The position numbers were made by a program, and so were the translations under genes. A DNA stretch of 64,000 bases from a virus. The notes beneath the pieces are model-generated. The model had not been told where the DNA came from, ran no database searches, and saw only the letters and a program-made list of their open reading frames with translations. Below, piece after piece: positions 7,767 to 51,063 of the stretch. Where the stretch lies: the IMG/VR virus record IMGVR_UViG_3300028048_000053, positions 98,692-162,691 of that record, one strand, 5' to 3'. Each line of letters opens with the position of its first letter. Positions within the stretch are counted from its first letter, which is position 1.

Positions 7767-8126
7767 TTGACTAAGTTAAAAAAATATGATATAATATATA
7801 TAGAAATGAAAGTAGGAGTTTTGGATATGCCAGCAAAATGTGATTATGATAAAGCTTTTAATTTTAACGTTACCTGTTTAGACCAATATGACTTCAGCGA
7901 ATTTTTGACAGATGGACGAAGTCTTTGGAATATTAGAGACGCAATTGAAGAAAAATATGATAAAGAATTTAAAGAAAAATATGATATTTATGTATTTGAT
8001 AATCTTGACGGAGAAGATACTTGTCAATATTTCGCAAGTAGATATAATGTCTGGTTTCAGGAATATACGGATTGGGTGGTGAGACACGAGAATGGAACTG
8101 ACGAAAAAACAGCAAGAAGGACTTAA
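7767..8126 (+). CDS. Hypothetical protein (119 aa)
   Basis: ORF. Its end overlaps the start of the helicase gene. Confidence 0.45.
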   Translation: MTKLKKYDIIYIEMKVGVLDMPAKCDYDKAFNFNVTCLDQYDFSEFLTDGRSLWNIRDAIEEKYDKEFKEKYDIYVFDNLDGEDTCQYFASRYNVWFQEYTDWVVRHENGTDEKTARRT

Positions 8127-9303
8127 AATTGCGATAGAGCGATATAAAAATCACGAAAAGTTTACCGTAATTTCGGGTTATGCTGGAACAGGTAAATCAA
8201 CGCTGGTTAAGTTCATCGTAGAAGCACTACCAGATATTGAGCCTGAATTGGACGTAAAATATGTAGCATATACAGGAAAAGCCGCTAATGTTTTAAAAAA
8301 TAAAGGTTGTCCAGGAGCAACAACAGCTCATAAATTGATTTACGAGGCTCGTATGATGCCAGATGGTAAATATAGTTTCTTCCCTCGCCAAGAGCTAGAA
8401 GGCCATCCATTGGTAATTATTGTAGACGAGGTCTCAATGTTACCTAAAAAAATGTGGGACAGACTATGTTCTTATAATGTCTATATTATCGCTTGCGGCG
8501 ACCCCGCATAGCTTCCTCCAGTGGCGGACAAAGGAGAGGACCCAGACAACCACGTACTTGACCATCCGCATATTTTTCTTGATGAGATTATGCGGCAGGC
8601 CGCAGAAAGTGAAATTATCAGATTGTCAATGCATGTCAGAGAAGGAAAATCCTTATCTTTATATTGGGCAGAAAATAAAGAAGTAATGATGATTCCAAAA
8701 GGTGAGCTAACTAATGATATGCTCCTGTGGGCCGATGAAGTTTTGTGTTCAACCAATGGGACTTGCGGCCGCCTGAATAATCGTATGCGCCAGGCCAAGG
8801 GATTGTTCGGGGACCCCCAGGTTGGGGATAAAATTATTAATCGTCATAATGAGTGGGAGTTTTTATCAAATAAACAAAACCCTTTAACAAACGGAATTAT
8901 CGGTACGGTAGTAGGTAATAATTATAAACAAGACATTTATTACCCAGGATGGATTCGTAAAGAAGACCACAACTTTTCCATCCCGGTGTATTGGTGTGAT
9001 ATGGCGGGTGATGAAGAGGGAGAGATTTTCTCTGGAGTCATGATGGACTATGAAATGATAAACGGCAGAGAAGAGAGTTTGAACGGTAGGGAAAAATACC
9101 TAATTAATCGCTCTAAAATTAAATCCTTTATTCCCTTTACTTGCACCTATGGATATGCCATCACCACCTGGAAGGCCCAGGGCAGCCAATGGGATAAGGT
9201 CTTGCTAATGGACGAAGGATGGCCATATGAGCCAGAATTACGTCAGAAATTTTTATATACAAGTATCACACGAGCTGCGAATAAATTGGTGATTATTGTT
9301 TAA
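8092..9303 (+). CDS. SF1 DNA helicase of the Dda/RecD/Pif1 type
   Basis: Walker A GYAGTGKST. Motif III reads GDPA-TAG-LPPV, so TAG 8509-8511 sits exactly at the invariant Gln. Both halves are in frame 1. C-terminal ...YAITTWKAQGSQWDKV is RecD motif V/VI-like. Confidence 0.85.
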
Positions 9304-9342
9304 AATTTTGACTTTAATTAAAAATAAAGGTATAATATAAGT

Positions 9343-9537
9343 ATGTTTGGTATAAATAATGATTATTACGACGAAATGTTAAATTATCCATGTTTAAGCA
9401 AAATGCCTGGTAACTGGTTGGTTAAACATGGTTTTGATAAAGCTTGGGATATGCTGATAAACGATGGCCTATGTGTTTTAATGGAAAGGTTAGAATATTT
9501 AGCAAGTCAAGAGCTTTTAAAAGAGGGTGATTAGTAA
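9343..9537 (+). CDS. Hypothetical protein (64 aa)
   Basis: ORF ending ...GD-TAG-TAA. Its stop overlaps the RBS and GTG start of dnaE. Confidence 0.35.
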
Positions 9538-12050
9538 GTGAAGATTAACGATAGATATTATCCAGGTAGTCTTCATAATTAAACCATACGGATTATAGCA
9601 ATTTAAGACTACGCGATTCTATTAACACTATTTCAGGACTGATAGATTATGCTATAGAACTTAATCACGAAGTTATTGCTATAACAGACCACGAAAGTGT
9701 TAGTAATGCAATAAAGGTAGAGAAATATTATAATTCAATTAAAAAAGAACATCCAAACTTTAAAGTAATTTTAGGAAATGAAATATATCTAACCCGTGAT
9801 GGCCTTAATGCAGAGAACTTTGACAAAACCCAAGATAAATATTATCACTTCTTGCTCTTGGCGAAGGACGCTATTGGACATCAACAAATTAGAGAACTTT
9901 CTACAAGAGCATGGCTACGTTCATACACCGCTCAGAGAATGCGAAGAGTGCCAACCTATTATCAAGATTTGATTGATATTATCGGGGCAAATCCTGGTCA
10001 TGTCATTGCGTCAAGTGCGTGTTTAGGTGGCTTTATTCCAACTGAATTGCTTCAATGGAACGAAAATAAAGATGATAATTTTTATCAAAAAATTGTTCAA
10101 TGGGTTATTCAAATGAAACAATTATTTGATAATAATTTTTACCTGGAATTACAGCCGTCTGCTTCAAAAGAACAAACATTCGTAAATAGAGAATTGATAA
10201 ATCTATCAAGATTAACCAATACTCCATATATAATAACGACCGATAGCCATTATTTAACCAAAGAAGACGCAAGTATTCATAAAGCATATCTTAATTCGCA
10301 AGATGGTGATAGAGAGGTTGATAGCTTTTATGCAACAACCTATATGATGAGCACAGAAGAACTTGAATCACATCTAGACCTGACTGAAGAAGAATTAGTA
10401 TATGCGTATGAGAATATTTTGAACATCAAAGAGTCGTGTCAAGACTTTAGTTTATTAAAACCGCTTCGTATTCCAGAGCTGCTTTGGAAAACATATCCAG
10501 AAGATAGAGAAGCCATTGAGCACTATTCTCAATTAATTCCTTATCTTCAAACTTTTTATACCTCTGAATATATTGGCGATAAAATATTGGTTAATGCTAT
10601 TGTTGATAAATTAAAGAAAGAGACAAAATTAAACGAACAAAATACTTATGATGCTATAAATACTTGTTTGGAAATGACTTGGATTTCTTCGGAAGTAAAC
10701 AAGGCGCATTGGTCGGCATATTATTTAAATTTACAAAAAATTATTGATACTTGTTGGGAAGCTGGTAGTATTGTTGGTCCAGGGCGTGGTTCTGGCGTTG
10801 GATTTATCTTACTTTATATTTTAGATATTACCCAAATTAATCCTCTATGGGAAGATGTGCGGACGTTCGCTTGGAGATTTTTGAATCCAGCTCGTGTGTC
10901 CGTATTAGATGTAGATTTTGACATCGAGGGTGGCCGGCGGCCGCAAGTATTAACGAAGTTTAGAGAAGTTTATGGCGAAGACAGAGTAGCAAACGTAGTA
11001 ACTTTTGGAACCGAAAAATCTAAATCGGCGATTTTAACTGCGGCCCGTGGACTGGGTATTGATGTAGATGAAGCACAGTATATTTCATCTTTAGTTCCAT
11101 CTGATAGAGGAATGATACGCACCTTAAAACAATGCTACTACGGCGACGAAGAAAATGGTTTTGCCCCAATATCTTCTTTTATTAGAGAAATGGATGCCCG
11201 GCCAGAGCTCTGGCAGGTAGCGCAAAAAATAGAGGGTCTTGTATGCAGAATGGGTATTCACGCTGGCGGAGTTATTTTTGTTGATGAACCGTTTACTAAT
11301 ACAACGGGTCTTATGCGGGCACCCGATGGAACAATTATAACAGCCTTTGACCTTCATGACGCAGAAGCAGTAAGCCTTATTAAATATGATGCTCTTAGCG
11401 TTGAAGCCGAGGATAAAATACATGCTTGTATGGATTTGCTATTGGCCGATGGTGTTGTTGAGCCAGGAGCAACTTTAAAAGAAACCTATGAAAAGATAGT
11501 GGGTATATATGGACTTGAACGCGACGACCCCAAGATGTGGGAAATGGTTTGGAATCATAAAATCCTGTCGCTATTTCAAATGGAACAGCAAAGCGGTATT
11601 CAAGGTATTGCTTTAACAAAACCGAAAAGTGTAGAAGATTTAGCCCACTTGAATTCAGTCATTCGCTTAATGGCTCAAGAAAAAGGTGGAGAGCAGCCTT
11701 TATCCAAGTATGCTCGATTTAAAGAGAATCCAAAACTGTGGCGTCAGGAAATGACAAAATATGGATTGACAGAAGAAGAGCAACAGTTATTGGTACCATA
11801 TGTTGGAGGTTCTTATGGTATTTGCGAAAGCCAGGAGGGTTTCATGCAGTTGGTACAGATTCCAGAGTGTGGCGGCTTTGACCTAAACTTCGCAGACCGA
11901 CTTCGCAAAAGTATTGCAAAAAAGAATCCAAAAGAGTATGAAGCATTAACTAAGGAATATTTTGAAGTTACTGCGGAAAAAGGATTAAGCAAAAATCTGT
12001 GCAACTATGTATGGAACGTACTGGTAGCGACAAGTCGTGGTTACGGTTTT
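9538..12050 (+). CDS. dnaE: DNA polymerase III alpha subunit (DnaE-type), exon 1: PHP domain, palm and most of the fingers. There is an apparent frame break after codon 14.
   Basis: PHP motifs LHNHTDYS and AITDHESV. Palm motif GPGRGSGVGFILLYILDITQINPL. The ORF finder start at 9852 (TTG) would delete the PHP domain. GTG 9538 has an AGAGGGTGA RBS. The exon ends at U 12050 inside GYGF|N. Confidence 0.75.
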
Positions 12051-12366
12051 AAAATAAATTGAAACCCTATATAGAGATATATAGAAAAAAATCATTTAAA
12101 TTGCGGGAAACCCCTTAGAGCTTTAACAACCAAGTTTAAATAGTAATATTTAAATGGCGAGGGTAATGACTAAGGTATGGTAAAATCGTTAAAGATTGGG
12201 CAATCCGCAGCAAAATTTCGGACAAAAACTACTAATCCATAATATAAAAAATCCGAAAGATGTTCAGAGACTATAATAATGACTTCCTAAATGATGAAGA
12301 GAAGGAAGATGGTATAGTCCAGACTACAACAGAAAAAACTGGCTTAGGAAACTAAGAGTAGTAAAG
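12051..12366 (+). mobile_element. Group I self-splicing intron (316 nt, no internal ORF) interrupting dnaE
   Basis: 5' splice site after U. The internal guide GAAACC at 12061-12066 pairs with the exon end GGUUUU. Conserved elements are P AAUUGCGGGAAA (12098-12110), Q AAUCCGCAGC (12202-12211), R GUUCAGAGACUA (12262-12273) and S AAGAUGGUAUAGUCC (12306-12320). Omega-G lies at 12366. The spliced product gives the conserved GYGFNLSHTLAY junction. Confidence 0.8.
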
Positions 12367-13725
12367 AATTTATCACACACACTTGCGTATTCATTAGTAG
12401 CTCTTCAAGAAATGAATTTAGCTTTTCGATATCCAATCATCTATTGGAATTGCGCTTGTTTGATTGTAAACAGCGGTGGCAATAATGATGAAGAGAATTT
12501 TGATGATGAATCTACAAGTACTGACTATACAAAAATTGCAAAAGCATTAGGCGATACTATCATGGCTGGAATTAAAGTAAGTCTGGTAGATATTAATCGT
12601 TCAGACTTTGGTTTTAAGCCAGATGTTGATAATAACCAAATTCTTTTTGGAATGAAAGCTTTATTAAATGTTAATGATGATGTTGTTAAAGATATAATAG
12701 CTAAACGCCCATATGTTTCAATTAAAGATTTTTATTATAAAGTAAAACCAAAGAAACAAGCTATGATCTCTCTTATTAAGAGCGGCGCTTTTGATAATAT
12801 GATGGAGCGCAAGTTAGCAATGGCTTGGTACATTTGGGAAACTTGTGATAAGAAGAGTCGTTTAACTCTACAGAATTTACCTGGATTAATTCGATATGGT
12901 TTATTACCAGAAGATACTGAAGAAAGAGTAACGGCTAGACGAATTTATGAATTCAATCGGTATCTTAAAGCTGTATGTAAACATAAAGAAAATTCTACTT
13001 GGTATTTCTTAGACGATAGGGCAATAACCTTTTTACAAGAATTGGGATATGATAATTTAATTCAAGAAAATGAATTTCTTGAAATTAAGCCCTGGGATAA
13101 GATTTATCAAGGTTGGATGGATGTTTTTAGAACCTGGATTGCCGCAGATAAAGAAACTATTCTTGATAATTTAAATACTTTAATATTTAAGCAAGAGTGG
13201 GATAAATATGCATCTGGCAATTATTCATCGTGGGAAATGGAAGCCATGTGTTTTTATTATCATGACCATGAGCTAAAGAATATAGACTATCAAAAATATG
13301 GCTTGAGTAATTTCTTTAAACTGCCCACTATTCCAGTAGTAGAAAGAAGTTTTACCAAAGCTGGAAAGGTTATTAATATTTTTGAACTAACTCGTATATG
13401 TGGCACCTGTATTGCAAAGAATAAAAATAAAGGAACGGTATCTTTACTTACTCCGGAAGGAGTTGTAAATGTACGATTTGCTAAGGAATTATTTGCTATG
13501 TTTGATAAACAGCTTTCTGAGGTCCAGGAGGATGGTACCAAGAAGGTTACCGAGCGTAGTTGGTTTAATAGAGGTCAAATGATTATGGTTACGGGTATGC
13601 GGCAAGGCGATGATTTTGTTGTTAAAAAATATGCTTCTACCCCAGGTCATAGATTATATCATATAGACGAAATTATTAATGGAACTGAATTAAGAATGTC
13701 AGTGGAGAGGAATAGCACAGAATGA
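12367..13725 (+). CDS. dnaE: DNA polymerase III alpha (DnaE), exon 2: rest of the fingers, beta-binding region and C-terminal domain
   Basis: In frame 1 from 12367. Begins NLSHTLAYSL... and then IKVSLVDINRSDFGFKPDVDNNQILFGMKAL, which is DnaE-like. Ends with TGA at 13725. Confidence 0.75.
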   Translation, partial: NLSHTLAYSLVALQEMNLAFRYPIIYWNCACLIVNSGGNNDEENFDDESTSTDYTKIAKALGDTIMAGIKVSLVDINRSDFGFKPDVDNNQILFGMKALLNVNDDVVKDIIAKRPYVSIKDFYYKVKPKKQAMISLIKSGAFDNMMERKLAMAWYIWETCDKKSRLTLQNLPGLIRYGLLPEDTEERVTARRIYEFNRYLKAVCKHKENSTWYFLDDRAITFLQELGYDNLIQENEFLEIKPWDKIYQGWMDVFRTWIAADKETILDNLNTLIFKQEWDKYASGNYSSWEMEAMCFYYHDHELKNIDYQKYGLSNFFKLPTIPVVERSFTKAGKVINIFELTRICGTCIAKNKNKGTVSLLTPEGVVNVRFAKELFAMFDKQLSEVQEDGTKKVTERSWFNRGQMIMVTGMRQGDDFVVKKYASTPGHRLYHIDEIINGTELRMSVERNSTE

Positions 13726-14276
13726 GAAAGAATGTTAATGACATAGATGAATGGGTAATATTGGAAGAATTTCCTTCTTATAGTATAAACAGAAAAGGTT
13801 TTGTTAAAAATAACGAAACTGGACATATCAAAATTCCTTCTATGGGAACTAGAGGATATCCTGTGGTGTCCCTTCAAAAAAATAAAAAAACTTATTTAAG
13901 AACAATACATATTTTACTGGGAAGAACCTTTATTTTTAATAACGATCCTATTCATAAAACCTAGATAAATCATATAGATGGAGATAAGGCAAATTATAAT
14001 CTTTCAAATTTAGAATGGGTAACTCCACAAGAAAATAACAATCACGCTAGATGTACTGGTTTATATTTATCAGACGGTGATAAAGCTGTTATACAATTAG
14101 ATCAAAATAATAATATTATTGCCGAATATCGTTCTGCTTCAGAGGCAAGTAGAATTACAGGAATTGGGCGAGCTAATATTTGTAACGTATGTCGTCATTA
14201 TGTTTCTAAAGACAATAGGCATTATTATACAGCAGGAGGTTATAAATGGGAATGGAAAAAAAATATGATGCAATAA
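13722..14276 (+). CDS. HNH homing endonuclease (HNH_3 type with a C-terminal AP2/NUMOD-like DNA-binding region), free-standing
   Basis: EWVILEEFPSYSINRKGFVKN...NHIDGDKANYNLSNLEWVTPQEN. C-terminal GIGRANICNVCR...AGGYKWEW. ATGA overlap with the dnaE stop. One in-frame TAG. Confidence 0.8.
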
Positions 14277-14485
14277 ATCCTTAGCATTATAAAATTGGCG
14301 GCATTGAGTGCATCGACGCACTTGCGGCCGCCACTACCGGGCTGGAAGGAATTGAAGCAGTTTGTACTGCAAATGCCATTAAATATTTGTGGCGTTGGAA
14401 ATATAAAAATGGCCAAGAAGATTTAAAAAAGGCCAAATGGTATATTGACCATCTGATTAAAGAATTGGACAAAAATAGCCAATAA
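14246..14485 (+). CDS. DUF3310-family phage protein
   Basis: NPQHYK..GIECIDA...NAIKYLWRW...DL.KA.WYIDHL pattern. One TAG. Contains a GCGGCCGC motif. Confidence 0.5.
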
Positions 14486-14556
14486 ATCAATAAGAAAAAC
14501 TAAATATAGTGGAATGGCCTTTTTGAAAAAAACTATATTTAGTTAGGAGGATATGT

Positions 14557-16761
14557 ATGTTTGTTAAAAAACGTGATGGACAAAAAGTTATTTTTAATAA
14601 ACAAAAAATTGAAGATGCTATAAATAAAGCTTTTCTTGAAGTAGATGGATAGCTTTATGAAACTGATACCGCAAAAGAAATAGCCGATGAAATAGAAAGC
14701 TTCTATCAGTGCCATAAAATGGAGTAGCCAGATGTTGAAAGTATCCAAGATATGGTTGAAAAATATTTAATGTTGTCTGAACGCAAAGATGTTGCAAAAG
14801 CATATATTCGTTATAGATATAAAAAAGAGATTTTGCGTCAAACAAACCAGACCTATAATAGCATCTTAGATTTAGTCGAATTAAATAACCAAGAAATTAA
14901 AGATGAAAACTCAAATAAAAATCCTATTCAAGCCTCTACTTAGCGAGATTATATCGCTGGCGAGGTGAGTAAGGATGTCACACGCAGGATACTTCTTCCT
15001 TCGGTTGTGCAAGAGGCTCATGACAAAGGACAAATCCATTTTCATGATGCAGATTACTTTATTGAGCACATTTTTAATTGTTGTTTAGTAAATCTTGAAG
15101 ATATGCTGCAAAATGGAACCTGTATTAATAAAACTTTAATCGAAAAACCTCATAGCTTTAGAACAGCTTGTACTATTGCTACTCAAATAATCGCCGTCGT
15201 TGCATCTGGACAATATGGCGGACAATCTATTACCTTGTCACATTTAGCTCCTTTTGTTGATGTTTCTCGAAAAAATATCAGGGCTGAAGTGATAAGAGAA
15301 TTATCGAATTTATTAAAAAGAACTCCAGAAGATGACGAGGTAGAGCCCATTGTAAGAGAACGCCTCTTGCAAGAAATAAAAGATGGTGTTCAAACTATGT
15401 AGTATCAGATTAATACTCTTAATACTTCCAATGGCTAGACTCCGTTCGTAACTGTTTATATGTATTTAGGAGAAGTCCAAGACTCTCAAACCAAAAAGGA
15501 TTTGGCACTTATTATTGAAGAAGTGCTTAAGCAACGAATCCAAGGAGTTAAAAATGAAGTTGGAGTTTGGATTACTCCAGCTTTCCCAAAATTAATTTAT
15601 ACTTTAGAAGAAGATAATATTTATGAAGATTCTCCATATTATTATTTGACTGAACTTGCTGCAAAATGTACAGCGAAGAGAATGGTTCCAGATTATATCA
15701 GTGAAAAAATCATGCTCTAGCTAAAAGGGGATGTTTATCCCTGTATGGGATGTAGATCTTTTTTAACGCCAGATCGTTTTACCGATAAACATATAGGAAA
15801 TATAAGCAACGCAAAGAATTATATCGAAGGTTAGCATAAATATTATGGAAGATTTAACTAGGGCGTAGTTACAATAAATCTAGTAGATGTAGCGTGCTCG
15901 GCTAATGATGAAACAGAATTTTGGAAAATTTTAGATTAGAGACTAGAAATCTGCCATCTAGGACTTCAAGTACGTCATAAGAGATTATTAGGAACTGTCT
16001 CAGATATATCTCCTATTCATTGGTAGTACGGCGCTTTAGCCAGACTAAAAAAAGGAGAAACAATTGATAAATTACTGTATAATGGTTATTCTACTATTTC
16101 ATTAGGATATGCTGGATTATGGGAATGTGTTTATAAAATGACCGGTAAAAAATTAACTGAACCAGAAGGTAAAGAATTTGGTTTATAGGTAATGAAAAAA
16201 TTAAATGATGCTTGCGCCAAATGGAAAGCTGAAGAAAATATAGATTATTCAATTTATGGCACTCCAATTGAATCAACAACCTATAAATTTGCAAAATGCT
16301 TATAGAAACAGTTTGGTATTATACCAGGAGTAACCGATAAACAGTATATCACAAATAGTTATCACATCCATGTGACAGAACCAATTGATGCTTTCTCTAA
16401 AATTGCATTAGAGGCTGAATTTCAAGCTTTAAGTCCAGGAGGCGCAATTACCTATATAGAAGTTCCAAACATGTAGAATAATATTCCTGCTGTTTTAGAG
16501 GTTATGAAATTTATTTATAACCATATAATTTATGCTGAACTAAACACTAAATCAGATTACTGCCAAGTTTGTGGATATGATGGAGAAATAAAAATTGTAA
16601 CAGACGAGGAAACTCAGCGCCTAGTTTGGGAATGTCCTAATTGCGGCAACCGCGATCAAAGTAAGATGAACGTAGCAAGACGAACCTGTGGATATATAGG
16701 ATCCAACTTCTGGAACTAGGGTCGTACCGAAGAGATTGCGGAACGGGTATTGCATTTATGA
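14557..16761 (+). CDS. nrdD: Anaerobic ribonucleoside-triphosphate reductase NrdD (class III RNR) with an N-terminal ATP-cone, and about 14 in-frame TAG codons
   Basis: ATP-cone MFVKKRDGQKVIFNKQKI. C-terminal zinc ribbon CQVCGYDGE...CPNCGN and glycyl-radical motif RRTCGYIGS. All fragments in frame 1. RBS AGGAGG. Confidence 0.85.
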
Positions 16762-17453
16762 AAACATTTTATATTTATCGCCATACAAATCTAATAAATG
16801 GTAAAGTATATATAGGACAAACTTGTCAAAAGCCTGAATATCGCTGGGGTAAAGATGGCAATGGATATAAAAATTCTCCCCATTTTTACGCGGCAATTCA
16901 AGAATATGGATGGGAAAATTTTAAACATGAAATTCTTTATAGTGGTTTAACCCAAAAAGAAGCTAACGATAAAGAACAAGAACTGATACAATTATTTGAT
17001 GCTACAAATCCCGCCCAAGGTTATAACTCTGAATCAGGTGGTAAAAATAAAATTCCTAATCAATATACTAGAGAAAAATAGTCCTAGGCTGCCCTTAATA
17101 GACCTATCGTTTCCGAAGAGACAAAAAGAAAATTATCTAAAGTATCTTTAGGAATTTAGAGAAGTAAAGAAACAAAAGAGAAAATGCGAATTGCAGCCGT
17201 GAGGAGAGAACAAAAACGTTCTACCAAGTCTAGCCCAGTTATATGTATAAATACTGGTCAATATTTCTCTTCATGTCGTAAGGCTGCTGATTGGTGTGGA
17301 TTAGCCGGGGTAAGTGGTATCTGTTTGGTTTGTAAAGGAAAAAAACAGAAAACCGCAGGTGCTCACCCCATAACAAAAGAGAAGTTGTTTTGGAGATATG
17401 CCACACAAGAGGAGATACGATAGCATGAGATATGCAACAATCAAAAAAAATGA
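16758..17453 (+). CDS. GIY-YIG homing endonuclease with NUMOD-like C-terminal repeats
   Basis: YIYRHTNLINGKVYIGQT and following GIY-YIG core residues. C-terminal repeated ETKRKLSKVSLG / ETKEKMRIAAV. Fragments in frame 0. The 3' end depends on TAG read-through and overlaps the nrdG start. Confidence 0.7.
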
Positions 17454-17916
17454 TATTGCAAATGGTGAAGGTATTGGAGTGTCTTTTTTTGTATAGGGAT
17501 GCCCAATAAGATGTTTTAATTGCTTTAATAAAGAAACATGGGATTTTAATGGCGGAAAAGAATTTACTATTGACACATTAACTGAAATTATTGAAGCGAT
17601 AAAAGCAAATGGAATAAATCGCCATTTTAGCGTATTAGGTGGAGAACCCTTATGCCAAGAAAATTTATTTTTAACAGCTTTAGTAATCAAAACCGTTCGA
17701 GAAACATATCCAAATATAAAAATTTATGTGTGGACTGGTTATACCGAAGAACAGCTTCAAAAGCGTACTGATAGTAAATTATCTTATATATTTGAAAATA
17801 TAGATTATTTAATAGCTGGGCCTTATATTGACAGCGAACGCGATATAACGCTCCCCATGTGCGGCAGCCGCAATCAAAAAATCATAAAAATGCATGAGGA
17901 AGATAAAAATGGGTGA
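17425..17916 (+). CDS. nrdG: Anaerobic RNR activating enzyme NrdG (radical SAM)
   Basis: GCPIRCFNCFN cluster (CxxxCxxC). One in-frame TAG. Frame 1. Ends with TGA at 17916. Confidence 0.8.
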
Positions 17917-41679: not shown

Positions 41680-44600
41680 TTAAAAACGATTTGCATACTG
41701 AGAAGCTCTATTAACTAGATTGTTAAATGCTTCTTCAATTTCTAAGTGATTAGATACGTTCGGAAATTCTGCGGTGATGGTGACCGTTTGTTCTAGAGCT
41801 TGCGCTTGATTGCCTAGGCTTGGTAACGCAACACCCGCGGCCGCAGACATTGATAGCGCCTAAAGGTCTATTGCATCGGTAATATCTCGCAAAATCGCAA
41901 CACTGGCCAAGAAGTTTTTAGTATCATCAGCATTAAGAACCAGCTCTTTTTCATGCAGCATTGCTATCTTTCCTTCTGGACCCCAAAAACCGGTATAGCC
42001 TCCAGTATCAAAAGCTACACCCGTGTTACTTTTTGAACTACCATTAGCCGACGATAAACCAGAAAAAGCCTTTTTTAGGTATTCTTCTAAGCTCTCGTAA
42101 AATTCATACTTTCCATTTTGAAATTTAAATAATGTACCTCTTTCTCCCAAGCTTAAATCTTGTTGTTCCATAAATGTATGCGCGCGATTTAGATTATCAA
42201 AATATTTTGTTGTTGGATAACCAGAAGAAGAATACATTATTAATTTATAAGGAGATTGATTATTTTTATTATTGACATTATCTCCCTTAAAATTATTTAA
42301 TGTTCCGTTAGTGCTACCATCATCATTACCAGTTTTGACAGAAGCTGGTGGTGTGGCATAACTTGTACCAGTTGGACTGCCAACTGGGACATCATATACC
42401 GTTTTTTCATGCTTCGTAATTGTATATTCCTTATCTTCTATTTGGGCCAGCTCTTCAAGCATGGTCTAAATTTCTGTATTAATTGCTTGTGCTGCTTCAA
42501 CAGCCCCTCCCTCTTGAAGAAGAGCCGTATACCACTTCTGCCACTCTGCGGTAGCGTCACTAGCTGCAGTAGCTTGCTCTTTAAGAGATGTAATAAGACC
42601 CTTTTCGTCGCCTTCTCCATCAAGTAGAGTAGCTAATACTAGCTTATCAGCCGCTTCAATTTTTCCCAAGGCTGTTTCTAGGCTGCCATAGCGATTAACT
42701 AAACTGCCCTCAAGACTTGCATCTCCAATGGTGTCAGCCAGTAACTGGAGTACTGGTAGATTCTTGGTTTTCATAAGTTCCATTTCGCTGGTAACTTTTT
42801 CCTAGGTTGTTTGGGCATTGGACATAATACCACTATAAAAAGCATCCCACAAAGGATTATTAGTATTAAAGAAATCCTAAGTTTTACCAGTCACATTGGC
42901 AAAATTGGTAGTCCAGAAGCTATCCGAAGCGGTTATATATTCATAGTGTTTTTTTGTTAAATCTTCCCATTCTTTAGACCACGAATCATTTTCTTGAGTA
43001 ATCGAAGTATCCTAAAGAACCTAAGAAGCTATTAAATGGTCTTTGGTATTTGCTAAAATTAAATCATCAAAATACTTTTCTAAAGCGACTCTTTGCTCTA
43101 AATAAACTGGATTGGTCTAATCCGTCACATATTTAAGGTCTAGTTCTCTTAATGCATTGTATTTCTCTTGAGTAATCTAAATTAATTCTTTTGCATTATC
43201 ATTAGCCTATTGCAAAGATAAATTATATAAATCGCTCTATTTTTGCGCCAAATTAGCTTCGGCATCAGAAATATTATCTCTATCAGCAGTATAAACATAA
43301 CCAAAATTACCTTCGTTATCTCTCTATAGACGGACTGTAGACTTTGCATCCCGCGCTTCTTCAAGAGCTAGCTCAGCCTTAAGGACTTCATATTTGGCCT
43401 ACTCGATAGCCAAAGAATTTTTACTTAATTGATTTGTATTTTTAAGATTTTCTAACTCTATAGTAAAATTTCTTAATCTGATTTTAGAGTTTGAATTATT
43501 TGTTTTATCAATGTCTTTATTAACTTGCGAAATTAATTTGCTCATTTCGTAAGCCTAATTCGTTTTAGTTAAATATTTATCACCAAGTTTTTCGGCCAAA
43601 GACATTTGCTGGTTTATAGCATCCCAACCCAAACCGTTGGTATAGGTTTTTTCAATATCCTGATATCCCTATTGAATAGTATTTTTAACTTTTTCAATCA
43701 TTAGAGATATAACTTGATTAAATTTTTCTAATTCATTTTCTTCCGCTTCTTCAAAAGCTTTTGTAATAGCCTTTAATTCGTTTTCTGCTATCGTCAGACC
43801 ATTTCTAGCCGCTTCTATAGCATTCTCGTCTCCAGAAGCAAGAACTTCTTCGTAGAGACGCTTTGCCTCGTCAAAGTCTAACCGACGAGCTTCCTTTTGT
43901 TCCTTATAAGCATCTGTGGTAGCTTTTGCTACTTCTAGCTCTTTTTCTGCGTGATTTAGAGAAGCATCAATAAATTTACCAATCGAAGCAAAATCATCTT
44001 CTTGGGTCAAGGACATATAAATATTTTTCATATGTTCTAACACGGTATTGTTGTGAGCAAGTCTATCGGTAAACCAAGAAATTTTTTCGCCCATTTTCTA
44101 AAGGGTATCGCTGTAATATGTTTTAGCTGTTTCATTTAAATCCTAGATATTACCAAGCTCTTCATAAAGACCATCACTAATTTTTTGAATTTCCTCATAA
44201 TATTCGTCTTGATTAACCTAGCCAGCTGCTAGCAATGTGTTTAGCTCATTATAAGCAGACTAATACCGTTCTATGTTTTCTACAGCAAGGGAGGCTTTTG
44301 AATCGCTGCTCTAAGACCATAATAAAGCTGCTACCTCTCCTGTTTTATATACGTCATCACCCAGTTTAGATAGCTAATACTCAACCTCTTTTAAATCCCT
44401 GGCATTTAATTCAATATGAAATTCTAAATGACTGGTAATTTTTTCCATGCGTAAAGTATTCTGTTGACGTATCTTTTCTTGGTATTCAGTTATCTCTTCA
44501 TAATTTTTATCTATAGTTTTTTCAGTTTGAGAAACTAAATCTTGCAATCCTTGCCACTGTTCTTTTTCATATTTCAAGAAGTTATCATCTTGATAATGAG

Positions 44601-47600
44601 CAGAACCTGCGGTATTATATTCATCGACAGCCGCATTGTATTTTTCCAAACCAGCTGCCATAATCTCATTATAATTAGCTATTGCTCCGAACTAGTCTAT
44701 CTATGCGGTTAAACCATAGAAATCAAGGCCGCGTTGGTCGTATGCTACGCCATCTAGGTAAAAAGCATTTTTCTTGCCGTAATTAAGCTATGAAACGTCC
44801 TGTTCTAGATATTTTTCTGTTTCAGTCGCTAAAGCTTCTTGTGCGGCTATTTCATCATCTAGTAGGTCAATTTCTTGTTGGATATATTTTAACTTATCAG
44901 GTCCATAAGCATGACTTTTAGCTTTTTCAAGACGGTCATAGGCTTTGCTGAGATTATCCAATCGATCTTCTTCAACGTGATAGCGATCTTCCTTGGTTTC
45001 TTTATTTTCTTTTTTGGGTGTACCAGAACCCTTTCCTCCACCGCCACCCTTGCTAGAGGATGTTGTAGATGATAGCGATGGTGTAGAGCGACCTGCGTAA
45101 GTAATCTCGTTAATAGTCGGTTCTCCGGCCGCTTCCCCCACTCCAATTTGAGCAACATCGACATATCCATCAACCGTGTCATAGCCATCGACAGTTGTTG
45201 TAGTCCAAGACGTCTGTTCTGAAACTCCTTGACCTCCAGGTAGTATAACCCCGGGGACGGCAGAAGCTCCGGTTGTACGAGTAATAGTTTTATACCTGGG
45301 AACTTGATGTTTAGTTTTTACATGTTCTAGAGTAACATTTGCCTCGAGACCCAAAGAATTTAGGGTTGATTGCATCTGGTCCACTGACATGCCAGTTGCT
45401 ACAGCCATTCTATTGAGCGCATCCACCCAATTCTAGGCATCAGTCCCCAAAATATCAGTTAAAGATTGTCCCACTAAATCTTGTCCAGATATTATCGCAT
45501 CCTCCATGGTAGAAATACCATTAAGAATTGTATCCTTCCAGGTTTCAAAAGCTGAAGTATTAAACATGGAGCCATCATCCAGAGCAACATCATTAAGAAT
45601 ATCATTAGATGAAATACCTTCAAAAGTAGCTTTAGCTAGCTCAATACCCAATCTATTAACTGCTTCAGCGCTGCCGCTGGCAGCCTCCCCCATTAGGGAA
45701 ATTCTTTCAGCGCCCTTTTCTGCGTCTGTAAAGAAATTATTAGGAATTTCGACACCCTCAAGAACGCCGACCAAGTCTTTTAGCGCGGATTCCATTGCCT
45801 GTATGGTGTCAATGTAATCCATAGAGTCTTGGCTTGTTGTATCCAAAGTCTCTTTCCATTTAGTCCAATTGTCTGTTAGGGTTTTTATCCCTTTGTTCAT
45901 GGACTAATTTAAAACCGCCATTCTTGTTGCAGTATTTTGCTAATCTTCTAAAGCAGAATAAGTATTCTAAAAAGCTTCCGCCTAATCTTCAATGTCATCT
46001 ACAGATAGCTTCATCGTTTCTGCTAATTCGGCAGTACGGATAGAATATTCTAAAATGCCACGAGCGCTTTGAATACTTTCTTCACTTCCATTGCTTAAAG
46101 CAATTTGAAATTTTTCTAATTCAGTAGAACAGGTATCATATTTGGTTGCTAAATCCTATAAGGCTTGATTTAAACCAAATTCTATTCGTTCTTCTTCAAC
46201 TCCAAGGTCAATGAGACTCTAACGAGCGGTCCGCAGCTAAATTAAAGAGTCGGCTGCCAAAAGAACGCTATCAATATTTTGCTAATATGTTGCCCACTGC
46301 TCTTCCGTTATATTTCCTTCGACTCCGGCAGTTCGATATTTATCAACGTCAGCTTGAAAATTTTTTATATTGGTTAAATTGGAAGAAATACTCTCTCTAA
46401 ATAAGCTATCATGGAACTACTAGGCATCTGTAGTGAGCTTGTATGTACCATCTTCCATTAGAGTAAAATAAGACTGTAAGTTTTCTGGAATGGTCTTAAA
46501 TTTTTCTGGATCAATTGCGTCCCCAAGCTTTAAAGAACTAAACTCTTTCTTTAACGTTGCGAAATCGGACTAAATACGGTCTATTGGTACTATATCAGAG
46601 AAATCATTTTTTTCTAAGCTCTCTTTTGCCTATGTTAATATATTGGCTGCCGTTTCTGGATCTAATCCGTATGTTTTAATTAGCTAATTTAGAAAATATC
46701 CATTTTCAAACCTCTTGGTTAAACTTTCTTTTGATAAGCCTTGCTCTATCATATAATCAATACTACCTGAAAGAGCAGCGTCCAAGAGAGAGCCCTATTT
46801 TAACTATGGTAATGACTAACCCGATAAATTATTTTGAAAATCGAGGCTATTTAAAGCATATCGAAGCTAATCGTCAGAAATATCGGCTACTTCACTCTCG
46901 GTATAGCCTAGCCTGTCCATAGCCAATCGACGCAATAATTCTGTATTAGCAGAATAAGTTCCATTGACCTGCTTTAATTGTCCATTATCAATCACGTAAT
47001 TGGTTTGATAATCTCTACTCCAATTACCTGTATCTGCAGCAAGAACCTAATCACTCACAAAAGCAAGCTATAAGTTTTTTTGTCCCTAACTGCCTGCGTT
47101 ATATTGTTTGTTATTGGCTAAAAGATTAGATGCGTATCCCTAAGATAAAGCTCGTTGCTAAGCTTCTAAAGCCACTAATTCCGGATTAATATTACTTCCT
47201 ATATTATGGATGTAATCAACTAATCCTTGCTTAAAATCTTTTGTAAGTTCGTTACTATCCTCCGCATAAACCTCTTCAAGAAAAGCATTTACAAATTCTT
47301 CGGGTGATTGAGATGAACCATTTGTTAAATATTGATTTACTCGTGATGCAAAGCTATCTTCATTATCTAATGAATATATATCTTCCTTAGATACTTTTAA
47401 TGATGATGCGTAATTCTGCTTACTTGTTAAATTTACTAAATCCTAACTCTACTACGCACTAATTTGTTCGGTTTTTAGAAAAGCATTATTCTTCTAAGCC
47501 ATTAAAGAAGTGTTCTACGCCATTAAAATTTGCTATTGCTACTACTCTAAAAATTTATCATAGCCTTCTTGAGAAATGGTAAAGATACCATTATTATTTG

Positions 47601-50600: not shown

Positions 50601-50937
50601 CTAACTTCTAAAAAGCCTGCTACCCAGAAGGTCCTAGTTTTAAAAGCTATTCACCATAGTTTGCTAATGACTATCCACTTTTCTTAATTGAATCATTTAA
50701 TCTTGTGAAGTCTAAAGTTCCAGTTTTCATATTAGTCGCTTGAGATAGGTGTGCAGAAAGCTCAGCTGCTGCCTTCGACGCTTTGGCTATCTCGTCACTA
50801 AAATTTAACTTATTAGTACCAGAACCAGTAGCTAAAGACTGTAATTGTTGCTATAAATCTTTTAATTGCTTCTTTGCTTTTTCAGTATTAGCATCGAAAG
50901 TTAATCGTACCTAATACTCATTTAATTCTTTAGCCAT
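41680..50937 (-). CDS. Tail tape-measure protein, about 3085 codons with more than 100 in-frame TAG codons
   Basis: All at least 10 ORF fragments from 50385 down to 41860 share one frame. AAAGGAG RBS plus ATG at about 50937. N-terminal TMP core ...VVGNAFKTIFARLEGLK. Central TM helices (47647-48003). Long coiled-coil content. TAA at 41680. Confidence 0.65.
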
Positions 50938-51063
50938 ACATAAACTCCTTTCTCTCCAACTTTTTTTATTTTTTGCAAAAAATAAAAATAAAGGGATAAT
51001 GAGAAATAATCTCATTATCCCCTTAGATTATTCCTATTTATTTTAAAAAAATAGGAAATTAAA

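What the first reader, a model, noticed from the sequence alone, without database searches (positions are those of the whole stretch)
12051..12366. Group I self-splicing intron inside the PolIII alpha (dnaE) gene, next to a free-standing HNH endonuclease
The DnaE reading frame stops right after GYGF (TGA at 12060-12062) and resumes 316 nt later with NLSHTLAY. Joining at U12050 | 12367 recreates the universally conserved GYGFN(K/L)SH(S/T)xAY fingers motif.

The intervening RNA has the full group I signature in the right order:
- internal guide GAAACC pairing with the exon end GGUUUU with U-G at the splice site
- P AAUUGCGGGAAA
- Q AAUCCGCAGC
- R GUUCAGAGACUA
- S AAGAUGGUAUAGUCC
- terminal G

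It carries no ORF. The HNH homing endonuclease gene at 13722-14276 directly abuts the 3' end of dnaE. That arrangement resembles trans-acting (collaborative) intron homing described in T-even-like phages.
Basis: partly seen in the sequence, partly recalled or inferred. Interest (0 to 1): 0.75.

Follow-up and report, generated by a model that had tools for sequence, protein, structure and literature searches.

The report
Decayed group I intron in phage dnaE
The 316-base interruption in this phage's DNA polymerase III alpha gene is a real self-splicing group I intron that has lost its own LAGLIDADG homing-endonuclease gene by deletion, and the neighbouring HNH gene looks like an unrelated mobile element; this is an ordinary kind of phage feature in a polymerase type where it had not been written up.

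Summary
dnaE stops after GYGF (exon end U12050) and resumes at 12367 with NLSHTLAY. The 316 nt between them are a group I intron.

- **Model score:** Rfam RF00028 gives 49.0 bits, E 2e-9 over the whole window, 1 bit under the curated cut-off.
- **Structure:** in 8 homologous introns, 98% of cells in 77 proposed pairs are paired and 37 pairs show compensatory changes. The splice-site U·G is invariant, and the guide sequence covaries with the exon's wobble base.
- **Empty site:** 73 of 79 relatives are contiguous at GYGF|N.
- **Lost ORF:** relatives carry the same intron with a ~840-nt LAGLIDADG gene in the P6 loop. The window and L083 keep nested remnants of that gene, so this copy is a deletion derivative.

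The collaborative-homing idea is not supported. A 94-99% identical relative (L224) has the same HNH and no intron at this site. L227 has the HNH and an uninterrupted dnaE. Seven distinct intron-bearing relatives lack the HNH. The HNH always sits between dnaE and DUF3310.

Verdict: a new member of a known kind, of modest interest. More interesting in passing are TAG-to-sense recoding and a recurrent 4-11-nt coding gap at dnaE codon 14 that looks like a translational hop.

The parts
9538..9579 (+). dnaE start (GTG, preceded by the Shine-Dalgarno sequence GAGGGTGA) and its first 14 codons, MKINDRYYPGSLHN
   Evidence: The peptide YPGSLHN is conserved and joined directly to HTDYSN in about 90 relatives.
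9580..9584 (+). 5-nt coding gap (UAAAC) inside the PHP motif LHN|HT. The 0-frame stop UAA follows the Asn codon AAU, and the gap ends in the Asn codon AAC. Candidate translational hop.
   Evidence: There are 15 variants of such gaps in relatives. Not tested experimentally.
9585..12050 (+). dnaE exon upstream of the intron (PHP, Pol3-alpha and most of the fingers domain), ending ...SRGYGF
   Evidence: PF02811, PF07733, PF17657.
12051..12366 (+). Group I intron, 316 nt, ORF-less, ending in G12366
   Evidence: RF00028 at 49.0 bits, E 2e-9 to 2e-11; covariation; fold z = -3.0.
12045..12066 (+). P1: exon GGUUUU (12045-12050) pairs with the internal guide GAAACC (12061-12066), with U12050·G12061 at the 5' splice site
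   Evidence: U·G is invariant in 8 of 8 sequences. The third pair takes four forms (AU, GC, UA, CG), tracking the exon's wobble base.
12056..12060 (+). P10 guide segment AAAUU, which pairs with the first five bases of the 3' exon (AAUUU, 12367-12371)
   Evidence: 77.5% of cells are paired across relatives.
12092..12282 (+). Catalytic core: P3 (12092-96 / 12278-82), P4 (12102-06 / 12205-09), P5 / P5a / P5b (12112-12200), P6 (12216-22 / 12252-58), and the P7 5' strand (12269-73)
   Evidence: P3 has 4 of 5 pairs with compensatory changes, P5a 6 of 7, P5b 7 of 8, P6 3 of 7. P4 and P7 are invariant.
12248..12355 (+). Remnant of the lost LAGLIDADG homing-endonuclease gene: its last 35 codons, KIRKMFRDYNNDFLNDEEKEDGIVQTT..., overlapping P6', P7, P3', P8, P7' and P9
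   Evidence: Homologous to the C-terminus of the 290-aa ORF in L039, L033, L075, L076 and L081.
12283..12362 (+). P8 (12283-88 / 12303-08), P7 3' strand (12315-19), P9 (12323-27 / 12358-62), P9.1 (12330-32 / 12339-41), and P9a with a GAAA loop (12343-47 / 12352-56)
12367..13725 (+). dnaE 3' exon (end of the fingers domain, HhH, C-terminal part), starting NLSHTLAY, with stop TGA at 13723-13725
13722..14276 (+). Free-standing HNH (I-HmuI-like: HNH_3 plus a weak NUMOD4 match) homing-endonuclease gene with an in-frame TAG at 13962-13964. It overlaps the dnaE stop (ATGA) and the start of DUF3310. Judged independent of the intron.
14252..14485 (+). DUF3310 gene, the constant right-hand neighbour of the HNH in all four contexts found

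Best explanation
[quoted passage not shown] The host is a large (about 172 kb), TAG-recoded, SPbeta-like uncultured phage.

**Inferred mechanism (standard group I chemistry).**
1. The guide GAAACC pairs with the exon end GGUUUU to form P1, with U12050·G12061 at the splice site.
2. An external guanosine bound at P7 attacks after U12050.
3. The adjacent guide segment AAAUU pairs with the 3' exon AAUUU to form P10.
4. The freed exon end attacks after G12366, joining ...GYGF to NLSHTLAY.

**History.** The intron descends from a mobile intron that carries a LAGLIDADG homing-endonuclease gene in its P6 loop. Here about 840 nt of that gene have been deleted. Only the part that doubles as ribozyme core remains, so this copy can no longer home by itself. 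That is the late stage of the invasion, decay and loss cycle of homing elements.

**The HNH gene.** The gene at 13722-14276 is a separate free-standing homing endonuclease with its own site at the dnaE/DUF3310 boundary.

**Shown versus inferred.** Shown: the sequence anatomy, the covariation, the empty-site alleles, the deletion series, and the lack of intron/HNH co-occurrence. Inferred: actual splicing, and the loss of mobility.
For: **Intron identity**
- RF00028 matches its full model: 49.0 bits, E 2e-11 and 2e-9. The ORF-less homologue at the same site in L077 scores 62.8, above the cut-off of 50.
- On 8 homologous introns, 98.0% of 608 cells pair. 37 of 77 pairs change on both sides, against 4-9 when the partner is slid by 1-3 columns, and 0 of 500 shuffles reach the observed values.
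- P1 covaries with the synonymous third base of the Gly codon (GGU, GGA, GGC, GGG against GAAACC, GAAUCC, GAAGCC, GAACCC).
- The minimum-free-energy fold finds the same helices, z = -3.0.

**Empty site**
- 73 of 79 IMG/VR relatives have zero gap at GYGF|N.
- Uninterrupted proteins and Taq/E. coli DnaE structures read YGFNKSHAAAYSL without a break.

**Deletion series**
- L033, L039/40, L075, L076 and L080-82 have 1112-1161-nt versions, homologous on both sides (76-91% identity), with a two-motif LAGLIDADG ORF (PF14528 at 29.2 bits against a cut-off of 22.5).
- L083 (93% identical to the window) keeps about 45 nt more of the ORF's 3' end, with a frameshift. The window keeps only the 35-codon tail.

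**HNH independence**.
Against: - The window copy is 1 bit below Rfam's gathering score, so the default scan reports nothing.
- P5 is only 3 bp, and the intron subgroup was not determined.
- I drew the structure while looking at these same sequences, which inflates the percentage paired. It does not inflate the count of double changes relative to the slid controls.
- Only 8 sequences were used, some closely related.
- No RNA or protein data exist, so splicing itself is inferred from structure and from the need for an intact DnaE.
- A residual role of the HNH in moving the intron is not excluded.
Confidence: 0.88

Rival explanations
1. Collaborative or trans homing. The free-standing HNH next to dnaE cleaves intron-less dnaE alleles at or near the GYGF|N site, or somewhere within co-conversion distance. 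In that way it spreads the ORF-less intron, as T4 MobE does for the defunct I-TevIII intron and F-CphI does for the psbA intron.
For: - An ORF-less intron lies 1.36 kb from an intact HNH gene.
- There is precedent for exactly this rescue of a stagnant intron (PMC2790892; review PMC3984707).
- Between the window and L224, identity steps from about 94% (left of the intron site) to 98.6% (from 12376 rightwards through the HNH). This could be one edge of a conversion tract.
Against: - L224 carries the 99%-identical HNH with an uninterrupted GYGF|N site that encodes the same protein. L227 (HNH 71% identical) has a 1220-aa uninterrupted dnaE. An enzyme that cut that site would attack its own genome.
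- Seven distinct intron-bearing relatives have no HNH within 5-6 kb.
- The intron family has its own LAGLIDADG enzyme.
- The HNH's constant position is the dnaE/DUF3310 boundary.
- The genome also holds a free-standing GIY-YIG gene at 16758-17453, so adjacency between a homing-endonuclease gene and a conserved gene is common here.
Confidence: 0.08
2. No splicing. The interruption is a natural split of DnaE into two polypeptides (1-836 plus KIN, and a second chain from ATG 12412), or the gene is a decaying pseudogene.
For: There is an in-frame stop at 12060-12062 and an ATG-initiated ORF at 12412-13725. The gene also has a second defect, the 5-nt gap at 9580-9584.
Against: - Restarting at 12412 would drop the conserved NLSHTLAYSLVALQE.
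- The guide sequence covaries with the exon sequence in 8 lineages, which only makes sense if P1 is used.
- Both exons are free of stops and conserved, with all four Pfam domains intact.
- The same intron is kept in at least 7 distinct relatives.
Confidence: 0.02
3. A split intein or 'fractured gene' arrangement. The two halves would be joined at the protein level, with an endonuclease gene nearby.
For: DnaE is the classic split-intein host, and fractured genes with free-standing endonucleases exist in metagenomes (PMC2677866, listed).
Against: - Exon 1 is followed by only 3 codons and a stop.
- The frame of exon 2 is not open upstream of the splice site as an intein half would require.
- No ORF lies in the 316 nt.
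- The insert is a group I ribozyme by model score and covariation.
Confidence: 0.01

Closest known systems
Group I introns in phage DNA polymerase genes (SPO1/SP82 with I-HmuI and I-HmuII, Bastille with I-BasI; cited in PMC3984707)
   Same: [quoted passage not shown] It belongs to a patchily distributed, endonuclease-driven family.
   Different: Those hosts are family A (PolA-type) polymerases with intron-encoded HNH nickases. Here the host gene is a DnaE-type (family C) polymerase, the family's enzyme is LAGLIDADG, and this copy has lost it. My literature searches found no described group I intron in a dnaE gene. That is absence of hits in one library, not proof.
T4 nrdB intron with defunct I-TevIII, plus the free-standing HNH MobE (PMC2790892)
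   Same: A stagnant intron whose endonuclease is no longer functional, with an intact free-standing HNH gene in the neighbourhood.
   Different: In T4, intron inheritance was shown to depend on mobE. Here the comparative data show the HNH with intron-less alleles, and the intron without the HNH.
Collaborative homing: cyanophage S-PM2 psbA intron with F-CphI (PMC6083498; review PMC3984707)
   Same: An ORF-less intron in a conserved gene with an adjacent free-standing endonuclease gene.
   Different: The defining convergence of endonuclease target and intron insertion site is contradicted here by genomes that are HNH-positive and intron-negative. This intron is ORF-less by deletion, not primitively.
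Rfam RF00028 (Intron_gpI) members in Staphylococcus, Bacillus (PBS1/AR9), Clostridium (phiCD211), Vibrio and gut phages
   Same: The P3-P5 region (intron positions about 38-165) is 70-77% identical to introns in these phages, one of which is annotated Intron_gpI.
   Different: They sit in other host genes (tape measure, RNA polymerase beta, unannotated). Similarity covers only about 40% of the intron.
Homing-endonuclease life cycle: invasion, fixation, endonuclease decay, intron loss (the Goddard and Burt model; from my own knowledge)
   Same: All stages are seen at one site: empty (73 loci), intron with an intact LAGLIDADG gene, partial ORF deletion (L083), and near-complete ORF deletion (window, L077).
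   Different: Nothing different in kind. This is a clean metagenomic illustration of the model.

Membership tests
Group I intron (Rfam RF00028) | Covariance-model score at or above the curated gathering score (50 bits) | tested here: inconclusive
   The window scores 49.0 bits, 1 bit short, but with E 2e-9 over 64 kb and a full-length model match 1-253. The homologue at the same site in L077 scores 62.8 and passes; L083 scores 44.8.
Group I intron | P1 formed by the 5' exon end and an internal guide, with a U·G wobble at the splice site | tested here: met
   GGUUUU (12045-50) pairs with GAAACC (12061-66). U·G is present in 8 of 8 homologues, and pair 3 shows four compensatory forms.
Group I intron | Conserved core P3-P9 in canonical order, including the P3/P7 pseudoknot and the P, Q, R and S elements | tested here: met
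   77 pairs in 15 helices, 98% of cells paired, 37 pairs with double changes against 4-9 in the slid controls. P, Q, R and S are at 12099-12110, 12202-12211, 12262-12273 and 12306-12320.
Group I intron | 3'-terminal G, and P10 pairing of the guide with the 3' exon | tested here: met
   G12366 is the last intron base. AAAUU (12056-60) pairs with AAUUU (12367-71). P10 is paired in 77.5% of cells across relatives.
Group I intron | Guanosine-dependent self-splicing that yields ligated exons | not testable with these tools
   Needs in vitro transcription and splicing, or RT-PCR.
Group I intron | Precise excision restores the host reading frame, and intron-less alleles exist | tested here: met
   Joining 12050 to 12367 gives GYGFNLSHTLAY. 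73 of 79 relatives, and L224 and L227, are contiguous there. Taq DnaE reads NYGFNKSHAAAYSL.
Mobile intron with a LAGLIDADG homing endonuclease | An intact intron-encoded endonuclease ORF | tested here: not met
   No ORF is present. Only the 35-codon C-terminal tail remains (12248-12355). Relatives carry the full ~290-aa ORF (PF14528).
Collaborative or trans homing (free-standing endonuclease plus ORF-less intron) | An ORF-less intron with a free-standing endonuclease gene adjacent to the host gene | tested here: met
   The HNH at 13722-14276 abuts the dnaE stop.
Collaborative or trans homing | The endonuclease cleaves the intron-less allele at or near the intron insertion site, so genomes that carry the endonuclease have that site disrupted | tested here: not met
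   L224 (HNH 99% identical) and L227 (71%) carry the HNH with an uninterrupted GYGF|N site. Cleavage itself is not testable here.
Collaborative or trans homing | Intron and endonuclease gene are co-inherited across relatives | tested here: not met
   Intron present and HNH absent in L033, L039/40, L075, L076, L077 and L080-82. Intron absent and HNH present in L224 and L227. Both are present only in the window's own contig. L083 has the intron, but its contig ends at the dnaE stop, so its HNH status is unknown.
DnaE-type DNA polymerase III alpha | PHP, Pol3-alpha, fingers and HhH domains in order | tested here: met
   PF02811 at 89 bits, PF07733 at 173, PF17657 at 68 and PF14579 at 58 on the spliced product. 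The closest cultured relative is SPbeta YorL at 46% identity.
HNH homing endonuclease (I-HmuI-like) | An HNH_3 catalytic motif with NUMOD-type DNA-binding modules | tested here: met
   PF13392 at 31.3 bits against a cut-off of 24.8. NUMOD4 is weak, at 16.7 bits, below its cut-off. Homologues carry NUMOD4, NUMOD1 and the I-HmuI-like domain.

The most novel reading that the evidence does not exclude
The ORF-less intron is not simply stranded. It persists because HNH-initiated gene conversion at the dnaE/DUF3310 boundary drags it into HNH-less genomes as part of a co-conversion tract of at least 1.4 kb. This would be MobE/I-TevIII-style trans-mobilisation, so two unrelated selfish elements would form a functional partnership in a DnaE-type polymerase gene. 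The step in identity between the window and L224 exactly at the intron site (94% to the left, 98.6% to the right) would then be one edge of such a tract.
Probability: 0.08. Interest if true: 0.5.

Novelty: new member of a known kind. Interest (0 to 1): 0.33.

Why it matters
**Annotation.** Gene callers split this DnaE into fragments. The source assembly-aa and 437-aa products, and the default Rfam threshold misses the intron. Polymerase genes of this large group of TAG-recoded gut and rumen phages will therefore be mis-annotated unless introns are modelled.

**Biology.** The site is a tidy natural series of the homing cycle: empty, intact, half-decayed and fully ORF-less. It also shows that one DnaE motif has been invaded by at least two unrelated introns, one LAGLIDADG-bearing and one GIY-YIG-bearing. 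Across the clade, dnaE holds insertions at seven or more sites.

This extends the classic picture of introns in phage polymerase genes from family A to family C polymerases. It does not change any concept.

The side observation, a recurrent stop-initiated 4-11-nt coding gap at codon 14 of the same gene linked to an upstream GIY-YIG gene, could matter more. It may be a second natural family of endonuclease-associated translational bypass.

Tried and rejected
- **Rfam at gathering threshold on the whole window:** nothing, because the hit is 1 bit short. Only the E-value mode showed it.
- **Megablast of 9300-14300 against GenBank phages:** no match. The phage has no cultured close relative.
- **Rfam on relatives with ORF-containing introns (L001, L034, L066, L081):** nothing at E ≤ 0.001. 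The 850-1250-nt inserts are the probable cause, though I did not test that. This is not evidence against those introns.
- **Second intron at the dnaE 5' break (9200-9800):** searched with Rfam and found only noise. The break is a 5-nt gap, not an intron.
- **IMG/VR scan with the HNH:** only relatives of 57% identity or less, in unrelated contexts, which was uninformative. The big protein database was needed.
- **Downstream start explaining the 5' gap:** rejected. There is no ATG, GTG or TTG in frame before 9852.
- **Sequencing or assembly error for the gap:** rejected. There are 15 different variants, in independent assemblies.
- **Split intein:** considered and rejected on anatomy.
- **tRNA scan for a TAG suppressor in the window:** none found.
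- **Literature searches for a group I intron in dnaE or Pol III alpha:** no report found.
- **Intron subgroup (IA2 or other):** not settled. No P7.1/P7.2 is evident.

Full report
**1. The observation**

The sequence is as described.
- The DnaE frame reads ...ATSRGYGF, with TTT at 12048-12050, then three codons and TGA at 12060-12062.
- From 12367 the frame reads NLSHTLAYSLVALQE... to TGA at 13723-13725.
- The 316 nt between them have stops in all three forward frames and end in G12366.
- The quoted P, Q, R and S strings lie at 12099-12110, 12202-12211, 12262-12273 and 12306-12320.
- The spliced product (1288 aa) has PHP, Pol3-alpha, fingers and HhH domains in order.
- Across the junction it aligns without a gap to Taq and E. 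coli DnaE structures (NYGFNKSHAAAYSL) and to uninterrupted metagenomic homologues.

**2. Is it a group I intron?**

*Model score.* Rfam's default scan of the window returns nothing. The reason is only that the match is 49.0 bits against a cut-off of 50. In E-value mode RF00028 matches 12041-12332 over the whole model, with E 2e-11 locally and 2e-9 for the full 64 kb. No other family reaches E ≤ 0.05. The ORF-less homologue at the same site in L077 scores 62.8.

*Covariation.* I collected homologous introns from the same insertion site in relatives. I trimmed the ORF-bearing P6 loops, aligned 8 sequences, and counted pairs for a hand-drawn P1-P10 structure.
- 98.0% of 608 cells are standard pairs.
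- 37 of 77 pairs show changes on both sides. Sliding the partner by 1-3 columns gives 4-9 such pairs and 36-46% pairing.
- None of 500 shuffles reaches the observed values.
- P3, P5a, P5b, P2, P6, P8, P9 and P9a all carry compensatory changes. P4 and P7 are invariant.

*P1.* The exon Gly codon varies at its wobble base (GGU, GGA, GGC, GGG), and the intron's guide changes to match (GAAACC, GAAUCC, GAAGCC, GAACCC). The splice-site U·G is kept in 8 of 8 sequences. The guide's 5' half, AAAUU, pairs with the first five exon-2 bases to form P10.

*Independent fold.* An unconstrained minimum-free-energy fold recovers the same helices, z = -3.0.

*Caveats.* I drew the structure from these same sequences, and the sample is small and partly related. 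The double-change counts relative to the slid controls are the robust part. Splicing itself is inferred, not shown.

**3. Empty sites and history**

*Occupancy.* Of 79 IMG/VR loci that encode relatives of this DnaE segment, 73 are contiguous at GYGF|N. Six carry an insert at exactly that point: L033, 1158 nt; L039/L040, 1160; L075, 1112; L076, 1122; L077, 278. The closer relatives L080-82 (1161 nt) and L083 (356 nt) also carry one.

*The long forms.* They match the window intron on both sides (76-91% identity). They differ by about 840 nt at window-intron position about 189, in the P6 loop. That segment encodes a ~290-aa protein with two LAGLIDADG motifs (...LTDGYI......IIDGDGC...) that passes Pfam LAGLIDADG_3. 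Its last ~35 codons overlap P6', P7, P3', P8 and P7'.

*The deletion series.*
- The window keeps exactly that tail in frame (KIRKMFRDYNNDFLNDEEKEDGIVQTT, 12248-12355).
- L083, 93% identical to the window, keeps about 45 further nt of the ORF's 3' end (VYNqPFG.., with a 1-nt deletion) and part of its 5' leader.
- The series therefore runs ~1160, then 356, then 316 nt.

The window intron is a deletion derivative that has lost its own means of homing.

*Other invasions.*
- The same site holds a completely unrelated 1193-nt insert with a GIY-YIG-like ORF (motif read by eye, no Pfam scan of it) in gut-metagenome contigs L222/L223.
- dnaE of this clade has inserts at seven or more positions: about 160, 421-428, 446, 571, 611, 792 and 836.
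- The intron's P3-P5 region is 70-77% identical to group I introns of Staphylococcus, Bacillus, Clostridium and Vibrio phages.

**4. The HNH**

*The gene.* 13722-14276 is one gene only if TAG at 13962-13964 is sense. The genome clearly recodes TAG: ORFs of 150 aa or more cover 25% of the window under the standard code, 90% with TAG as sense, and 32% with TGA as sense. The product matches HNH_3. Its homologues carry NUMOD and I-HmuI-like modules.

*Context of the closest homologues.*
- L224 carries an HNH 99% identical, with flanks 94-98.6% identical to the window. Its gene order is dnaE (with a GIY-YIG intron at site 611/612), then HNH, DUF3310, nrdD. Its fingers-HhH part is a single 659-aa ORF reading ...SRGYGFNLSHTLAYSL..., so there is no intron at our site.
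- L227 (HNH 71% identical) has an uninterrupted 1220-aa dnaE followed by HNH and DUF3310.
- L225/L226 (HNH 62% identical) again show HNH followed by DUF3310.

*The converse.* None of the intron-bearing loci L033, L039/40, L075-77 or L080-82 has an HNH homologue within 5-6 kb. L080-82 have guanylate kinase directly after dnaE.

*Conclusion.* The HNH belongs to the dnaE/DUF3310 boundary, not to the intron. An enzyme that cut the intron-less GYGF|N site would be suicidal in L224 and L227. The window also has a free-standing GIY-YIG gene between nrdD and nrdG (16758-17453), so such genes are simply frequent here. The collaborative-homing reading is therefore not supported.

*What remains possible.* The intron could ride passively on HNH-driven conversion, as I-TevIII does with MobE (PMC2790892). 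One hint is that window/L224 identity steps from about 94% to 98.6% at the intron site. I give this reading 0.08.

**5. Comparison and novelty**

Group I introns in phage DNA polymerase genes are textbook: SPO1, SP82 and Bastille (PMC3984707). So are free-standing HNH genes and endonuclease decay.

The difference here is the host gene, a DnaE-type polymerase whose closest cultured relative is SPbeta YorL at 46% identity. I found no published intron in such a gene. The metagenomic data show these introns are common in this clade. I rate this a new member of a known kind, with interest about 0.33.

**6. Seen in passing, and possibly more interesting**

*The break.* dnaE has a second interruption. 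A good Shine-Dalgarno sequence and GTG 9538 open MKINDRYYPGSLHN, followed by UAA. The PHP domain continues in another frame with no start codon of its own. Removing 5 nt (UAAAC, 9580-9584) gives ...GSLHN-HTDYSN. That is exactly the contiguous sequence of about 90 relatives.

*The same break in relatives.* Twenty-five of 116 non-redundant relatives carry a 4-11-nt insert, never a multiple of 3, at the same three codons. There are 15 variants. Each begins with a 0-frame stop (UAG, UAA or UGA) directly after an Asn or His codon. Each ends in the same or a near-identical triplet. Many contain GGAG- or GGG-rich stretches.

| Locus | Sequence (insert in brackets) |
|---|---|
| window | AAU[UA AAC]CAU |
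| L034 | AAU[UAGG AAC]CAU |
| L180 | AAU[UGAGG AAC]CAU |
| L050 | AAC[UAGGGUUG AAC]CAC |
| L010 | CAU[UAGUU CAA]AAC |

[quoted passage not shown] They also fit the 10-nt phiHau3 terminase inserts (PMC10732093).

*Link to an endonuclease.* A full-length GIY-YIG gene of one family sits immediately upstream of dnaE in 7 gapped loci and in 0 of 91 ungapped loci. Fisher's exact test gives p = 1e-5, not corrected for relatedness. This echoes the T4 mobA/gene 60 cassette. The window has the gap but not the GIY-YIG gene. None of this is tested experimentally.

Noticed in passing
window 9538-9600 (gap 9580-9584); relatives L001, L010, L011, L014, L019, L027, L034, L037, L038, L041, L050, L145, L146, L152, L158-160, L163, L166, L173, L180, L188, L192-195, L198, L201, L203, L205, L206, L209, L210: dnaE has a 5-nt coding gap at codon 14: CAU AAU [UA AAC] CAU. 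A stop follows an Asn codon, and the gap ends in an Asn codon. The gap breaks the PHP motif LHNHT.

25 of 116 non-redundant relatives carry 4-11-nt gaps at the same spot, in 15 variants. None is a multiple of 3. All start with a stop, all have matching or near-matching take-off and landing triplets, and many are GGAG- or GGG-rich. About 90 relatives are contiguous.

This looks like programmed translational hopping or bypassing. Frameshifting that adds 1-2 residues is the alternative.
   Followed up: partly
upstream of dnaE in L180 (663-1382), L210, L027, L050, L037, L038, L019: A full-length free-standing GIY-YIG endonuclease gene of one family lies immediately upstream of dnaE in 7 gap-bearing loci and in none of 91 gap-less loci (Fisher p = 1e-5, not corrected for phylogeny). 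This is reminiscent of the T4 mobA plus gene 60 bypass cassette. The gap may protect the endonuclease's target site. The window has the gap but no such gene.
   Followed up: partly
whole window, e.g. helicase 8092-9303 (TAG 8512-8514 inside GDPA-q-LPPV), ORF 41680-51015 on the minus strand (90 in-frame TAGs): TAG is read as a sense codon, probably Gln (code 15). ORFs of 150 aa or more cover 25% of the window under the standard code, 90% with TAG as sense, and 32% with TGA as sense. No tRNA gene, and so no suppressor, lies in the window.
   Followed up: yes
window 9585-13725 compared with 14557-16761 and 28356-51015: dnaE has 0 TAG codons in 1275 codons. nrdD has 14 in 735, and the large minus-strand (presumably late) genes have about 1 per 35-60 codons. 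This fits replication genes being translated before the code switch.
   Followed up: partly
window 16758-17453: A second free-standing homing-endonuclease gene (GIY-YIG, PF01541) lies between nrdD and nrdG. In relatives L080-82 and L225, nrdD itself is interrupted by a GIY-YIG-containing insert, whereas the window's nrdD is intact.
   Followed up: partly
L222/L223 6688-7880; L001, L002, L007, L049, L052, L066, L070, L077, L080-82: The GYGF|N site is also occupied by an unrelated 1193-nt insert with a GIY-YIG-like ORF in gut contigs. Across relatives, dnaE has inserts of about 280-1430 nt at seven or more different positions: about aa 160, 421-428, 446, 571, 611, 792 and 836.
   Followed up: partly
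window 9654-17901 compared with L224: Identity to the near-identical phage L224 is 94-95% to the left of the intron site and 98.6% from 12376 rightwards. The two genomes have swapped intron states: the window has an intron at aa 836, and L224 has one at aa 611. This gives a recombination boundary at a mobile-element site.
   Followed up: no
L083 (2489-nt contig): The contig of the closest intron-bearing relative ends exactly at the dnaE stop, where the HNH begins in the window. This may be an assembly break caused by HNH presence/absence polymorphism.
   Followed up: no
L222/L223 835-2667: The RecD-like helicase upstream of dnaE in these relatives carries a LAGLIDADG_3 domain inside a 610-aa product. 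This may be an intein or an in-frame endonuclease insertion.
   Followed up: no
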